From: Octopus sinensis
Lineage: Eukaryota
Direction of reading: 5' to 3'
Assembly: GCF_006345805.1 (NCBI RefSeq)
Contig: NC_043001.1
Location: 112,840,001 to 112,904,000, forward strand
DNA: 64,000 nucleotides
This document shows positions 34,353-59,635 of this stretch, piece after piece; position 1 is the first letter of the stretch; the number at the start of each line of letters is the position of its first letter. The notes under the pieces are model-generated. The model was not told the DNA's origin. It ran no database searches and saw nothing but the letters and a program-made list of their open reading frames with translations. A program made the position numbers and the translations under genes.

Positions 34353-34493
34353 TATATATATGTATACACACACACACATACACATAATGCATGTATGTAT
34401 GTGTGTATATATATATATATATCTATATATATGCATGTATATAGTGTGTGTATATATATATATTTTTTATCAAATTTTTTTTTCAGAATGAAG

Positions 34494-34541
34494 GTCTTAC
34501 AGCTGTTTCCGGGATATTTTATATATCCCTTCATCAGAGAC
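34494..34541 (-). ncRNA. Type-I minimal hammerhead ribozyme (left arm)
   Basis: Mirror image of the plus-strand motif at 34635-34682. Confidence 0.75.
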
Positions 34542-34634
34542 AGTGTGAGAAAATGGTTAAGCAATAGTTAATTTAGACACTCTGTATTTCATATCATAAC
34601 CAAATTAACTATTGCTTAACCATTTTCTCACACT

Positions 34635-34682
34635 GTCTCTGATGAAGGGATATATAAAATATCCCGGAAACAGCTGTAAGAC
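34635..34682 (+). ncRNA. Type-I minimal hammerhead ribozyme (right arm)
   Basis: GTCT-CTGATGA-A-GGGATAT(ATAAA)ATATCCC-G-GAAA-CAGCTG-TA-AGAC: stem I GTCT/AGAC, 7-bp stem II, palindromic stem III ACAGCTGT, GUA cleavage triplet (cut after 34678). Confidence 0.78.
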
Positions 34683-34921
34683 CTCTTTATAAATGTTCTG
34701 TAATCTTTCAGTCTTCGATTTTTATCTCATTCGGTTAATATTTTTATATATATGCATATATATACACATTTATATATGTATGCGTATATACATATACACA
34801 CATATACATATATATATGCATATATATTATGTAGAGGCTATCTATCTGTCTATATTTATATATATATATATATATATAGCTGTGTCTATATCTATATGCA
34901 TATATATGCTGTCTATATAAA

Positions 34922-34975
<54 letters not shown>

Positions 34976-34984
34976 TATAATATG

Positions 34985-35190
34985 TGTGTGTGTGTGTATT
35001 TGTGTTTTTCCCTCACCATCGTTTGACAACCAATGTTCATGTGTCTATGTCCCCGTAACTTAGCAGCTCGCAAAAGACTGATTGTATAAGTAACTAGGCT
35101 TACAAAGAATAAGTCCTGGTGTTGATTTGTTTGACTAAAGGTTGTGCTTCAGCATGGCCACAGTGAAATGACTGAAACAAGTAAAAGAAT
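34985..35190 (+). mobile_element. Family A SINE 3' half
   Basis: GTTTGACAACCAATG...CAGCATGGCCACAGTGAAATGACTGAAACAAGTAAAAGA. Confidence 0.85.
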
Positions 35191-36284: not shown

Positions 36285-36714
36285 CAATATTTACTCATCC
36301 TCCGCTCATGTTTCATTGAAATTAAAGTGAGAAATGCGTCTTGTACTCCAGTTATAATGGTTTTTAATAGTTTCTCTAGATTATACCAAAATATATGTTA
36401 TCTGTTTTGCTCTTGGCTGCCCCCAGCTACTCTAAGCATGATGGTCTCGTCAGTTGTACTGATTATAAGAATGCATGATAATAATAATAATAATAATGAT
36501 AATAATAATAGAAATATTAAAATTACTAAGAAATATTAAAATTACTAAGTCTCTTTAAAAGAGATTATGGCAGCGTTACTGGATATTAATAGTTATCGCC
36601 ATACTAATATGGCAGTTTATAGTCTTATATCTATAGACTGCCATATTAGAATGGCGATAACTATTGATAATAATAATAATAATATAATAATAATAATAAT
36701 AATAATGATGATGA

Positions 36715-43640: not shown

Positions 43641-43680
<40 letters not shown>

Positions 43681-43822
43681 TAAGTGTATGTATAACAGAG
43701 GAAGAGAAGGAATAAACAATAAAAGAGTGCATGCGACAGAAAATAATTTGTGCATTAGAGATTTTATTAAAGTTTCAGAATGGCTTAGTTTGTTAAAATT
43801 GGAGAGAGAGAGAAAGAAAGAA

Positions 43823-43873
<51 letters not shown>

Positions 43874-44381
43874 TAAAAGGCTTACATAAAAGATTTTGTT
43901 GAATAGCCACAGACTGTTGCGAGTAGAATGTGTGTACATCAGTGGAGTGTGAATGTGTGGGTGTGTACATAATTATAGCCTTTGCTTAAATGACTCTGTT
44001 AAAGGTTCTTAAGAATACCGTGTGTGTATGTGTATATATATGCATATATGCACGTGATCACCTCAGTTTATGTGTGTGTCGTTACACGTCCATATAAGTA
44101 GGCTACACTTTGACACTGGAGATTCTAATAGATTGTAATTTTAAGCTTATGTGTGTGTGTGTATATATATGTCTACAGGCAACCGTCTGCTTATGTGTGC
44201 CTGTGTGTAAAAATAATTACACCTTCACATAAGTAATTACACCTTTATCTTGGAGATTCTAATAGCTGCAGAACTAGGAGTAAGGTGCATTTGTATGGGT
44301 GCATATGTAACTGTGCGTACAGTTGCATGCTTAATTACCTGTTTTTATAAGAGATTCTAATAGCTTCCGAATGATAAAGTT

Positions 44382-44417
<36 letters not shown>

Positions 44418-44558
44418 TAAGTGTATGTATAACAGAGGAAGAGAAGGAATAAACAATAAAAGAGTGCATGCGACAGAAAATAATTTGTGCATTAGAGATT
44501 TTATTAAAGTTTCAGAATGGCTTAGTTTGTTAAAATTGGAGAGAGAGAGAAGAAAGAA

Positions 44559-44615
<57 letters not shown>

Positions 44616-45143
44616 TAAAAGGCTTACATAAAAGATTTTGTTGAATAGCCACAGACTGTTGCGAGTAGAATGTGTGTACATCAGTGGAGTGTGAATGTGT
44701 GGGTGTGTACATAATTATAGCCTTTGCTTAAATGACTCTGTTAAAGGTTCTTAAGAATACCGTGTGTGTATGTGTATATATATGCAAATATGCACGTGAT
44801 CACCTCAGTTTATGTGTGTGTCGTTACACGTCCATATAAGTAGGCTACACTTTGACACTGGAGATTCTAATAGATTGTAATTTTAAGCTTATGTGTGTGT
44901 GTGTATATATATGTCTACAGGCAACCGTCTGCTTATGTGTGCCTGTGTGTAAAAATAATTACACCTTCACATAAGTAATTACACCTTTATCTTGGAGATT
45001 CTAATAGCTGCAGAACTAGGAAGTAAGGTGCATTTGTATGGGTGCATATGTAACTGTGCGTACAGTTGCATGCTTAATTACCTGTTTTTATAAGAGATTC
45101 TAATAGCTTCCGAATGATAAAGTTCATGTGTGTGTGTGTGTGT
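43641..45143. repeat. Direct tandem duplication, ~740-bp unit x2
   Basis: Near-identical copies offset by 737-743 bp (e.g. GGCTACAC at 44101 and 44843); junctions lie in (TG)n. Confidence 0.95.
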
Positions 45144-45540: not shown

Positions 45541-47009
45541 ACATGCATACACATGATTTCACACACAGTTATCACTTTATATAAGAGATTCTAATAGTCA
45601 CACAATGAAAAGTTTAAATATGTTTATGGATATACTTATATGTGTGTACCTAATTACCTTCATTTTACGTAAATAAGATCATCTGCAGAACAGGAAGCAG
45701 ATGGCATCACCAAAAAGAAATACAACAGGTTCAACTTAGTTCTCCCCTAAATAAACTGTTATCAAGGTATTGAACCTATGCTACATTGAACTATAGGTGA
45801 CTTGGCAAGAATTAGCAGTTATCACACAGCGTCAACTAAAACTTTTGAAGCTTTGCAAGGAGAGGTTATAGTATCTATAAATATGTATAGATCATAGGTC
45901 AAAAATTAAGGCCTTGTATTGCATTGTGTCCTTCCTGAGAGGCTCATTACTCTGTTTTATCCAGATTATGAAGTCAGAAAATAAAGGCTATATTAGTATC
46001 ACTTTATTTTGTGCTGGTTAGCCTAATGAATGGTATCCAGCTGTAAAAACACAAAACTTCAAGCAAACTGGCCTGACCTGGGATCAGTGAGTAAGGGAAT
46101 TTCTTTGCCATTTGCTTAAATTTGCTAAAAGTAGCTGCCAAATAAATTGCTACTCAAACAAATCTTTACTTTCAAGGGTGTTAGGACCACATGTTTTTGC
46201 AATTAAAAAAGTTCTATAACAATATTGCATACTCAATTTAAAGCTTACGTAGTAGAAATGATTAAGGCAGGTAGTTTCGTAATGTCGTATATGGCTACCA
46301 TATTAAGAGTTGACTTAATCCTCTCAAAACAGTAACCATTTAGTTTTATCCCAATCAGCAAGTAAAGTAAAATGAAAGAAGACAACAAACAGGGTTACAA
46401 TCTTATGGGTACAAGTTTGAGTTGTAACCATGTGGTTTTGATTAGATGGAAACTGTATGGAAGTTTGTTGAGCCTTTTTTTTTTTTAAGGCTACTAAAAT
46501 GCAAATGCAGTTAAATGTGTTCACAATTTTCACATCACATCAATGTGTTCACATTTTCCCATTTAGTAGAGCTATTGTTTTTAGCTTTATTTGCATTTGA
46601 GCCGTTCTTTGGAAGACTATTTTCAAATTTCTCAATGCTTCAAATGAACCAAAATGTGTGCCGAGTGTTTGCAGTGCAATCCAAACATGTCGCATTGCTT
46701 TCTTTTATGTCAAAAACTATTAAGTTAGCTTTTGAATAAAGTGAGATTGCTAAAATAAGTATCAGACGAAAATACATACCAAGGAACTTTTTTAATCAAG
46801 TACGCCAATGTTACCCTCTTGATTTGAAAGGAAGAAAATTATAGACTCTTTGAATTCAAAAGGTTTATTAAATCTATTTATATGGAGAACACAATTATGA
46901 ATATAATATGTATAAAACAGATGCGATAAAATAAATTGATATCCTCATAATGAGACAAAAGTATTTTTCTAGAAACTTTGTCACTTTGGGTTTTGGAGAA
47001 ATGGAGTTA

Positions 47010-47420: not shown

Positions 47421-48169
47421 ATTTCATTTTGGTTGTTTCATTTTTGCTACAATTACATCAAAATTGGGGCATTTTGATGCCAGAGCAACTTGGATGCAGT
47501 CTTTCAGGTCCAATCGATTACTCTGCTTTGTTTTTATATCCCTTAGAGTGGAAAATCCTTGTTTGCAAAGCTAGATTGTTGCAAAAGGCTTTTTAGTGGT
47601 TGGTACGATCAACTAAAACCCCAAAAAATGGCATACCCAGCATGGCCAGAGTTCAATGACTGAAATTAGTAAAAGAAAGAGAGGAGGAAACAAACTATTT
47701 TCATAAGGTATATTGAATACAGGTATCATTTTGTGGGTCAGCATTGTTTAGACACATAAGTTGCTGCTTATTATTCTTTGCTTGCATAACAGTTGGCAGC
47801 AGAATTCCTTACCTGTTGAAATATGTGAAGTAGCTTTCATTGTGCTCTTTTGTAGTGAAAAAATGCTTCTGTTTGGCACAAATTCTTCAAGGTACTTAGT
47901 GCTTCTCCCGTCTGGAATTCCATGTTTTTTTTTAAACAAGAAACTGACTCGGGCTTTTTATTATTTCTCATCCTGTAGCTTACACAAACATTTTAATATA
48001 TGAAAGCTCTCCCTCCTCTCCACTCATACAGCCACCCACACACCCTCACACTCATTTACTTAAGTACACTACATATATTTAAACATAGAACTTTTCGAGC
48101 ATTCACTAACTGTTATGCACAAACTATCAAAAGTACACATATTGTCAGGTATTTATATATACATATAAT

Positions 48170-48560: not shown

Positions 48561-49164
48561 AATAACAATCATATATATATATATATTTATATATAAACAC
48601 ATACATGCTTCTGTTTCTCTTTAGGCATACAGGTAAATGTTTATATTATTATACAGATGTTATCTACAAGTCTATTGACAAGTAACACTTAAGTATTTGT
48701 ATGTGAATGCATATTCTCATTATTACGTGCAGTGTGTATGTATAAATGTATAAATAAGTGTATGTCTCAAGTATTCACAAAAGCACTCAGACAATCACCT
48801 GTTTCTCTCATATGATAAGTAGACTATCTCTAAATATACTTATACCAACGTAATTACTTAAAAATTGCATGCATCAAAGTGAATAATCAGAATAGTGCAC
48901 ACACATTCTTCCCTTGTGTGTGTGTGTGTGTGTGTACATGCAAATACATATATGTATTTATGTGAGTTGGTTTGTAAGAATATGTAAATGGAAAAAGGTG
49001 TACTTTTCATAGTTTGTGCATAAGAGTTAGTGAATGCTCAAAAGTTCTATATTTAAATGTACGTAGTGTTCTGTTCGTAAGTAAATGAGTGTGAGGGTGG
49101 GTGGCTGTTATGAGTGGAGAGGAGAGAGAGCTTTTGTATATTAAAATGTTTGTGTAAGCTACAG

Positions 49165-49322
49165 GATGAGAAATAATAAAAAGCCTGAGTCAGTTTCTTG
49201 TTTAAAAAAATATGGAATTCCAGACGGGAGAAGCACTAAGTACCTTGAAGAATTTGTGCCAAACAGAAGCATTCTTTCACTACAAAAGAGCACAATGAAA
49301 GCTACTTCACATATTTCAACAG
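49165..49322 (+). other. Candidate 158-nt exon with one open frame (MRNNKKPESV...KATSHIST)
   Basis: CTACAG| acceptor with weak pyrimidine tract, CAG|GTAAGG donor, 52 uninterrupted codons; the inverted copy is frameshifted. Confidence 0.35.
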
Positions 49323-49827
49323 GTAAGGAATTCTGTTGCCTTGATTCTGCTGCCAACTGTTATGCAAGCAAAGAATAATAAGCAGCAACTTATGTGCCTA
49401 AACAATGCTGACCCACAAAATGACACCTGTATTCAATATACCTTATAAAAATAGTTTTGTTTCCCTCCTCTCTTTCTTTTACTAATTTCAGTCATTGAAC
49501 TCTGGCCATGCTGGGTATGCCATTTTGGGGGTTTTAGTTGATCATACCAACACCTAGTATGTATTTTAGTCTGATACTTACTTTATCAATCTCTATTTAT
49601 TGAAAAGCCAAGTTAATAATTTTTGACTTAAAAGAAAACAGCTCTACATGCTGAATTGCAAAGCATGCACTTGCATGCATTCTGGTTCATTTGAAGCATT
49701 GAGAAATTTGAAAATAGTCTTCAAAAGAACTGCTCAAATGCAAATGAAACTAAAATGTCATACAAAGTGTTTTAAAACACGACCGTGAGTGTGGAATCAA
49801 TATAAAAACTAAGCAATTGTCATATTA

Positions 49828-52691: not shown

Positions 52692-52718
52692 TGGCCTTTC
52701 TTACATTTCTCTTTGTTA

Positions 52719-52803
<85 letters not shown>

Positions 52804-52830
52804 TAACAAAGAGAAATGTAAGAAAGGCCA
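52692..52830. repeat. Near-perfect 139-bp palindrome centred on (TA)n
   Basis: TGGCCTTTCTTACATTTCTCTTTGTTATG(TG)n(TA)n(CA)nTAACAAAGAGAAATGTAAGAAAGGCCA. Confidence 0.93.
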
Positions 52831-59568: not shown

Positions 59569-59635
59569 GGCTTACAGCTGTTTCTGCTATAAGATGCAGT
59601 GGACTCCTAGTTCATTCTACAGCTTCATCAGAGCC
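59569..59635 (-). ncRNA. Type-I hammerhead ribozyme with long stem II
   Basis: Minus strand GGCT-CTGATGA-A-GCTGTAGAATG...CATCTTATAGC-A-GAAA-CAGCTG-TA-AGCC: stem I GGCT/AGCC, palindromic stem III ACAGCTGT, GUA site. Confidence 0.78.

What the first reader, a model, noticed from the sequence alone, without database searches (positions are those of the whole stretch)
34492..34684. Back-to-back hammerhead ribozymes in a perfect 83-bp inverted repeat
Seen: the arms are exact reverse complements, and each strand encodes a complete type-I hammerhead (stem I GTCT/AGAC, CUGAUGA, 7-bp stem II opened by an unusual A-G juxtaposition, GAAA, palindromic stem III ACAGCUGU, GUA site). Established: minimal hammerheads with palindromic stem III occur in LTRs of Penelope-like elements and retrozymes and cleave efficiently as dimers, and Penelope insertions often carry an inverted partial LTR. 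Inference: a very recent non-autonomous Penelope-type insertion. Any transcript through it contains a ribozyme plus its perfect antisense, so the 83-bp hairpin should silence cleavage while forming an ADAR/Dicer substrate inside a putative intron. No RT/GIY-YIG ORF is present in the window.
Basis: partly seen in the sequence, partly recalled or inferred. Interest (0 to 1): 0.85.

Follow-up and report, generated by a model that had tools for sequence, protein, structure and literature searches.

The report
Back-to-back Penelope-type hammerhead pair
A short piece of a very abundant repeat sits here as a perfect back-to-back double copy, each half carrying a hammerhead (self-cutting RNA) motif; it is likely the ordinary footprint of a Penelope-type jumping gene, and the hairpin is predicted to block cutting.

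Summary
In detail: arms 34492-34574 and 34602-34684 are exact reverse complements, and each strand carries an intact minimal type I hammerhead. A third hammerhead with the same core and three compensatory pairs lies at 59569-59635 (minus strand); none arose in 100 shuffles. The repeat is high-copy: 1,544-2,808 contigs per run in 4 of 4 runs from four organism codes, with other strand-switch joints. Spacer and right-hand tail are family sequence, so the locus is one direct and one shorter inverted 5'-truncated copy, head to head, between TA microsatellites. That layout, and paired minimal hammerheads on opposite strands, are published for Penelope-like elements. No parent RT/GIY-YIG element was found, and the locus junctions are unconfirmed in raw data. 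Two small oddities remain: an extra purine before GAAA, and C in place of U at core position 4 in 63-72% of the family's summed contig depth, so this copy's canonical core is the minority form. Verdict: new member of a known kind.

The parts
34492..34574 (-). Inverted copy of the repeat end, 27 nt shorter at its 5' end than the direct copy
   Evidence: family match of the identical right arm
34494..34541 (-). Minimal type I hammerhead, C3 at 34537, predicted cut after 34498
34575..34601 (+). Hairpin loop; not host DNA but the 5' part of the direct copy (family pieces start at 34578 and run into the arm)
   Evidence: tables 7 and 8
34602..34684 (+). Direct copy, part shared with the inverted arm
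34635..34682 (+). Minimal type I hammerhead: 4-bp stem I, CUGAUGA, unpaired A, 7-bp stem II, unpaired G, GAAA, 8-nt palindrome, GUA; predicted cut after 34678
34685..34745 (+). 3' extension of the direct copy, family sequence, absent as a block from the inverted arm (tail-like; exact end not fixed)
   Evidence: depth and loose ends
34471..34491 (-). 21 nt beyond the inverted arm; its first letters resemble 8-nt pieces of the family tail in two possible registers, or are host DNA
   Evidence: unresolved
34400..34470 (.). Left TA-rich microsatellite flank
34746..34990 (.). Right TA-rich microsatellite flank
59569..59635 (-). Third hammerhead, different repeat, same core, same palindrome and GUA, A and A as the unpaired purines, 24-nt loop II, three compensatory pairs

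Best explanation
The locus is two head-to-head, 5'-truncated copies of the hammerhead-bearing end of a high-copy repeat, likely pasted into a TA microsatellite in one event by the reverse transcriptase and GIY-YIG endonuclease of a Penelope-like element. Shown: the palindrome, the intact cores, that spacer and tail are repeat sequence, and that the family is abundant in four organism codes. Inferred from published Penelope layouts: the enzyme cut AT-rich DNA and copied one uncleaved RNA twice; both copies run across the ribozyme site, both stopped early, and only one kept the 3' extension. Predicted: the ribozyme is a dimer-type motif that does not fold actively alone, and in a transcript crossing the whole locus the antisense arm is made first and traps it, so the locus is most likely an inert by-product. 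A transcript starting inside the loop would escape the trap. Whether the donor was the pseudo-LTR of an autonomous element or a non-autonomous derivative is open.
For: Palindrome and cores. Family: 2,532, 2,808, 1,544 and 2,038 contigs laid at 85% or more in 4 of 4 runs, four organism codes, three studies; pieces span spacer plus arm, and arm plus tail; four opposite-strand joints at other breakpoints, each in one contig per run. Variation of 5% or more falls in loop II, a G-C to G-U change, the unpaired purine, position 4 and one outer stem I letter (4-5%); none is listed at the other core positions. Third hammerhead: 37 of 37 cells paired, 3 of 13 pairs changed on both sides. Folding: active monomer skeleton -8.4 against -16.9 kcal/mol for the best fold; double hammerhead -32.7 against a best dimer of -32.9. 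Literature: minimal hammerheads with 7-8 bp helix II, 4-5 bp helix I, an unpaired base at the 5' end of stem II, and pairs 100-700 bp apart on opposite strands (PMC4209133); head-to-head inverted shorter pseudo-LTR with a one-sided tail (PMC3846280; PMC8557442); AT-rich targets, uncleaved RNA as substrate (PMC11167929).
Against: No RT or GIY-YIG sequence linked to the family was found. The two locus-specific junctions are not confirmed in any run; the best holder has 0.61 of the sampled words and no listed piece spans the laid stretch. The extension is about 55-60 nt, longer than the usual 30-40. No clear target-site duplication: only an 8-nt AT-only match. The covariation rests on three rows, two of them the same element, with a structure drawn from them (14 of 500 shuffles as high). 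The dimer fold ties the best fold only in short contexts; with longer flanks the best dimer is -37.6 and -51.2 against a core-only -32.7. Rfam hammerhead models do not hit. The orientation of the other opposite-strand joints is not given.
Confidence: 0.8

Rival explanations
1. An older single copy was later turned into a palindrome by a local fold-back or template switch in host DNA, or the arms of an older double insertion were made identical by conversion; perfection then dates the copying event, not the insertion.
For: The tail carries letters rare in the family (other letter in 92-100% of depth at 34701 and 92-97% at 34712) while the arms are identical; the 8 nt beyond the left arm can be read as a tail piece after a deletion, differing from the right copy at one letter.
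Against: From 34607 to 34684 the arms differ from the family majority at only two places, both common family variants, which fits a minority donor better than long decay in place; inversions at other breakpoints occur elsewhere in the family.
Confidence: 0.09
2. The inversion is an assembly or library chimera of a high-copy repeat.
For: Perfect identity; no run is shown to hold the junctions; such structures are known to trouble assemblies (PMC8557442).
Against: The two flanks are not mirror images; the asymmetry matches the published Penelope layout; public contigs hold other strand-switch joints of this family.
Confidence: 0.05
3. The hairpin is kept by the host as a functional RNA: an ADAR or Dicer substrate, or a silencer of its own family.
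For: A read-through transcript would fold into an 83-bp duplex of about -147 to -153 kcal/mol; Penelope copies give small RNAs in a rotifer (PMC3846280).
Against: No gene evidence in the window; no conservation of the locus shown; an inverted copy is an expected by-product of insertion.
Confidence: 0.03
4. It is a MITE or fold-back DNA element whose terminal inverted repeats happen to hold a hammerhead.
For: Short, non-coding, long perfect inverted arms in TA-rich DNA.
Against: The loop is the upstream part of the right arm's own repeat, the family runs on linearly past both ends of the arm, and inversion points vary between copies.
Confidence: 0.03

Closest known systems
Minimal type I hammerheads (min-HHR) of metazoan Penelope-like elements (Cervera and De la Pena 2014, PMC4209133; seen: main text parts 1-2 of 4, supplement file 2 parts 1-2 of 3; file 1 could not be searched)
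   Same: CUGANGA plus one unpaired base, 7-bp helix II opened by G-C, 4-bp helix I, palindromic helix III, no loop-loop contacts seen, thousands of dispersed copies, pairs on opposite strands. Published rows from Drosophila willistoni and Saccoglossus also have a short palindromic helix III and an A at the cut site.
   Different: An extra purine between stem II and GAAA in both window families (the published consensus has C directly before GAAA; 1 of 56 core entries in the text of Fig. S3 reads AGAAA, row unclear). The family majority has C at core position 4. The pair here is 27 nt apart, closer than the 100-700 bp reported.
EN+ Penelope insertions with an inverted pseudo-LTR and tail (Adineta vaga, PMC3846280, passages; PMC8557442, passages; Anolis Poseidon in vitro, PMC11167929, parts 1-2 of 4)
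   Same: Head-to-head arms, inverted copy shorter at its 5' end, 3' extension on one side only, AT-rich or microsatellite target, copies that cross the ribozyme site.
   Different: No ORF here; extension about 55-60 nt instead of 30-40; no clear target-site duplication; parent element not identified.
Metazoan non-LTR retrozymes (PMC7229834, passages; bioRxiv 10.64898/2026.07.22.740005, part 1 of 5, supplements not seen)
   Same: Non-coding, type I hammerhead, AT-rich, proposed to be moved by Penelope-like enzymes.
   Different: No tandem units at this locus and a minimal rather than canonical hammerhead; circular RNA not examined.
Natural U4C hammerhead variant of a viroid (cited in Perreault et al. 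2011, PMC3088659, passages)
   Same: The same core change as the family majority; reported there to lower activity considerably in vitro yet allow infectivity.
   Different: Here it is the commonest form of a dispersed animal repeat; this locus itself has U4.

Membership tests
Minimal type I hammerhead of metazoan PLEs | Core CUGANGA, GAAA and NUH site in type I order | tested here: met
Minimal type I hammerhead of metazoan PLEs | Helix II of 7-8 bp and helix I of 4-5 bp | tested here: met
   7 and 4 bp in all three window motifs; definition
Minimal type I hammerhead of metazoan PLEs | One unpaired base between A9 and G10.1 | tested here: met
   A at 34646; definition
Minimal type I hammerhead of metazoan PLEs | G10.1-C11.1 pair next to G12 | tested here: inconclusive
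   The G-C pair is present (G-U in 45-49% of family depth) but an extra purine separates it from GAAA; 1 of 56 published core entries has a similar extra A
Minimal type I hammerhead of metazoan PLEs | Palindromic positions 15.2-16.2 allowing a double hammerhead | tested here: met
   8-nt palindrome; dimer fold -32.7 against best dimer -32.9 kcal/mol in a 61-nt context
Minimal type I hammerhead of metazoan PLEs | Large family with conserved core and covariation | tested here: met
   covariation is thin (three rows)
Minimal type I hammerhead of metazoan PLEs | Self-cleavage | not testable with these tools
   needs an in vitro assay
Autonomous Penelope-like element | ORF with RT and GIY-YIG endonuclease | tested here: not met
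   No hit in 300 of 459 candidate frames; so this copy is not filed as an autonomous element
Penelope-type insertion product | Family linked elsewhere in the genome to an RT plus GIY-YIG ORF | not testable with these tools
   No genome held; collections scanned gave only chance hits
Penelope-type insertion product | Head-to-head inverted, 5'-truncated copy next to a direct copy | tested here: met
   pattern
Penelope-type insertion product | 30-40 bp tail at one end only | tested here: inconclusive
   One-sided extension present but about 55-60 nt; the left end can be read in two ways
Penelope-type insertion product | AT-rich or microsatellite target | tested here: met
   6.7% of the window is strict microsatellite, so the test is not strong
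Penelope-type insertion product | Target-site duplication (optional in the family) | tested here: inconclusive
   Only TA runs and an 8-nt AT-only match
Non-LTR retrozyme | Tandem units, each with a hammerhead | tested here: not met
   No direct second unit at the locus or in the window; other loci not examined
Non-LTR retrozyme | Circular RNA | not testable with these tools
   contigs only
Rfam hammerhead families | Score at or above gathering threshold | tested here: not met
   0 matches in the window; no hammerhead family among 46 matches at E up to 10, which are generic hairpin hits

The most novel reading that the evidence does not exclude
The family is a latched hammerhead variant: the extra purine before GAAA pairs with core position 4 (U-G here, C-G in the family majority, U-A in the third motif), extending stem II over the catalytic core so that the RNA stays uncut until it dimerises or the Penelope protein binds. 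The most amplified lineage would be the one with the tightest latch and the weakened U4C core, which would mean that Penelope-mobilised RNAs are selected for delayed cleavage. In this copy the closed pairs have probability 0.77-0.95 with flanks. Against: the third motif does not form them (0.04 or less), they vanish without the upstream flank, U pairs with either purine so the pattern is nearly automatic, and linkage of C4 with G was not tested.
Probability: 0.12. Interest if true: 0.6.

Novelty: new member of a known kind. Interest (0 to 1): 0.27.

Why it matters
As a single locus it matters little: it is one more example of a published by-product of Penelope-type insertion. Its value is as a compact natural test piece. 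The same 83 nt can be assayed as monomer, dimer and self-trapped hairpin, and the family offers U4 and C4 lineages side by side. That bears on an open question stated in PMC8557442 and PMC11167929: what the hammerhead does for endonuclease-bearing Penelope elements, given that insertion in vitro does not need cleavage. If the weaker core is the more amplified one, it would point to selection for slow or conditional cutting.

Tried and rejected
No whole genome is held, so copy number, ends and the parent element could not be surveyed. Rfam: 0 at gathering; 46 matches at E up to 10, generic hairpins, no hammerhead. Pattern scans: viral contigs 7 loci, none with the CUGANGA core; metagenome contigs 0; prokaryote genomes 3 loci, read by eye as lacking stems I and II; all taken as chance. 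Pfam on 300 of 459 candidate frames: 7 weak hits, all below cut-off; 159 shorter frames and short exons untested. ARAGORN: 0 genes. Sequencing runs: no RNA holder listed, which is no evidence on expression; runs with small shares were not used. The locus-specific junctions were not tested in raw data. Target-site duplication: only AT-only matches. An ATG inside the core opens a 16-codon frame only, unlike the ORF start at stem II in the Anolis element. Neutral CpG decay as the sole source of U4 was considered: at all three CpG-type sites C-to-T exceeds G-to-A, which fits lineage variation better, but summed contig depth is a poor measure. Look-ups of earlier findings near the place and by sequence found nothing. 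Paper searches for a cephalopod hammerhead or a Penelope U4C report listed none; one search showed only 25 of 4,975 papers and the library lacks most subscription papers, so absence from print is not established.

Full report
1. Observation. The arms at 34492-34574 and 34602-34684 are exact reverse complements, 83 nt long and 27 nt apart. Each strand reads a complete minimal type I hammerhead: 4-bp stem I, CUGAUGA, one unpaired A, 7-bp stem II with a 5-nt loop, one unpaired G, GAAA, the palindrome ACAGCUGU and a GUA site ending at 34678, mirrored at 34498. A scan for this architecture finds three motifs in the window and none in 100 of 100 dinucleotide shuffles (written after seeing the motif). 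It keeps the core, palindrome and site; over 13 pairs, 37 of 37 cells pair and 3 pairs change on both sides. That count rests on three rows, two of which are the same element, and 14 of 500 shuffles reach it, so it is supporting, not proof.

2. The repeat family. No genome is held. Of 24 runs listed, 20 hold part of 34470-34745, from 12 studies and six organism codes; the best share is 0.61. Laying 34575-34745 at 85% likeness brought 2,532, 2,808, 1,544 and 2,038 contigs in 4 of 4 runs, from four organism codes and three studies. Pieces run from 34578 through the arm and from the arm to 34739-34745, and loose ends continue upstream of 34578. So the loop and the right-hand extension are repeat sequence: the locus is a direct copy cut short at its 5' end, plus an inverted copy 27 nt shorter still, head to head, between TA-rich microsatellites. 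Four opposite-strand joints at other breakpoints (34606/34646, 34607/34656, 34610/34656, 34628/34662; one contig per run each) show that other loci of the family are inverted too; their orientation is not given. No listed piece spans the stretch, and this locus's own junctions remain untested in raw data. The organism looks like an octopod from its SINE and microsatellite content; that is recalled, not tested.

3. Variation in the family (shares of summed contig depth, which is not copy number). Within the motif, differences of 5% or more fall in loop II, at 34665 (G-C to G-U, 45-49%), at the unpaired purine 34666 (G to A, 8-13%), at the outer stem I letter 34635 (4-5%) and at core position 4 (34640), where 63-72% has C. 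None is listed for the other core positions. So the fold looks conserved, and this copy's canonical CUGAUGA is the minority form. U4C is a known natural variant that lowers activity in vitro (PMC3088659, passages), and single changes in the CUGA turn gave low activity in a mutational scan (PMC9901934, passages). In the tail the window has letters rare in the family (other letter in 92-100% at 34701, 92-97% at 34712).

4. Age. Zero differences in 83 bp bound arm-to-arm divergence at 3.5%. That fits a young insertion from a minority donor, since from 34607 to 34684 the arms differ from the majority at only two places, both common variants. It also fits later homogenisation or fold-back of an older copy, given the rare tail letters. 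'Very recent' is plausible but not shown. No convincing target-site duplication was found.

5. How it likely works. Shown: the anatomy and the family. Predicted by folding: alone, the active skeleton is 8.5 kcal/mol above the best fold and stems I and III have probability near 0; two copies can form the double hammerhead at -32.7 kcal/mol against a best dimer of -32.9 in a 61-nt context, though longer flanks offer better alternatives. Because the arms are head to head, a transcript crossing the locus on either strand makes the antisense arm first; once the cut site has emerged, each core base is unpaired with probability 0.001 or less. Inferred from literature: a Penelope-type RT and GIY-YIG endonuclease cut AT-rich DNA and copy uncleaved RNA from internal start sites, which explains copies that cross the ribozyme site and a one-sided tail (PMC11167929, parts 1-2 of 4). 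The locus is most likely an inert by-product (0.8).

6. Gene context. Pfam gave 7 weak hits, all under cut-off, and no RT or GIY-YIG hit in 300 of 459 candidate frames. An intron is neither shown nor excluded. ADAR or Dicer use is untested.

7. Comparison with what is known. Cervera and De la Pena (PMC4209133; main text parts 1-2 of 4, supplement file 2 parts 1-2 of 3, file 1 not searchable) define minimal hammerheads of metazoan Penelope-like elements by a 7-8 bp helix II, a 4-5 bp helix I, an unpaired base at the 5' end of stem II and a palindromic helix III, and report pairs 100-700 bp apart on opposite strands. A single motif did not cleave and dimers cleaved weakly, which corrects 'efficiently'. 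Head-to-head inverted pseudo-LTRs, shorter at the 5' end, with a tail on one side are described in PMC3846280 (passages) and PMC8557442 (passages). Recently active Penelope-like families are reported in an octopus annotation that does not mention ribozymes (PMC13282606, passages). Non-LTR retrozymes (PMC7229834, passages; bioRxiv 10.64898/2026.07.22.740005, part 1 of 5, supplements not seen) need tandem units, absent here. What differs from the published consensus is the purine between stem II and GAAA, seen in both window families; 1 of 56 core entries in the extracted text of Fig. S3 reads AGAAA, so it has some precedent. It works like a Penelope insertion; membership of a named Penelope family is unproven because no parent ORF was found (searches gave chance hits only). 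Rfam hammerhead models do not detect it.

8. Most novel reading. Position 4 and the extra purine can pair in all three states seen, and in this copy the closed pairs have probability 0.77-0.95 when flanks are included. This could be a latch that delays cleavage. The third motif does not form it (0.04 or less), it depends on the upstream flank, and U pairs with either purine, so I give it 0.12. A search joining Penelope, hammerhead and U4C terms listed one paper, with no U4C mention; the library is partial. Unchecked notes from this scan report head-to-head hammerhead pairs and other altered cores in abundant repeats of the same genome; they are leads, not support.

9. Verdict. Real, correctly described, and of a published kind. 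New member of a known kind; interest 0.27.

Noticed in passing
window 59569-59635 (-): Third hammerhead with the same core, palindrome and GUA site, A and A as unpaired purines, a 24-nt loop II and compensatory pairs; a second family whose extent was not mapped.
   Followed up: partly
window 34640 (family variation): 63-72% of summed contig depth in 4 of 4 runs has C at core position 4, a change known to weaken hammerheads; this copy has the canonical U.
   Followed up: partly
window 47599-48138 with 48998-49551, and 46579-46779 with 49557-49755: Large older inverted duplication (92% and 85% identity) interrupted by dispersed repeats; no hammerhead core found in it.
   Followed up: partly
window 43647-45143: Tandem duplication of about 740 bp at 98.8% identity, no hammerhead core; recent duplication or assembly artefact.
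   Followed up: partly
window 36584-36669 and 52692-52830: Two further short hairpins: an 86-bp imperfect one, and a 46-bp inverted pair around a microsatellite.
   Followed up: no
window 34596-34605: A 10-nt block that differs at 6 letters from a common family form seen in loose ends, right at the 5' end of the inverted arm; subfamily difference or a template switch at the inversion point.
   Followed up: no
whole window: 26% is covered by repeats with a second copy in the window, many SINE-like; CpG observed/expected is 0.49.
   Followed up: no
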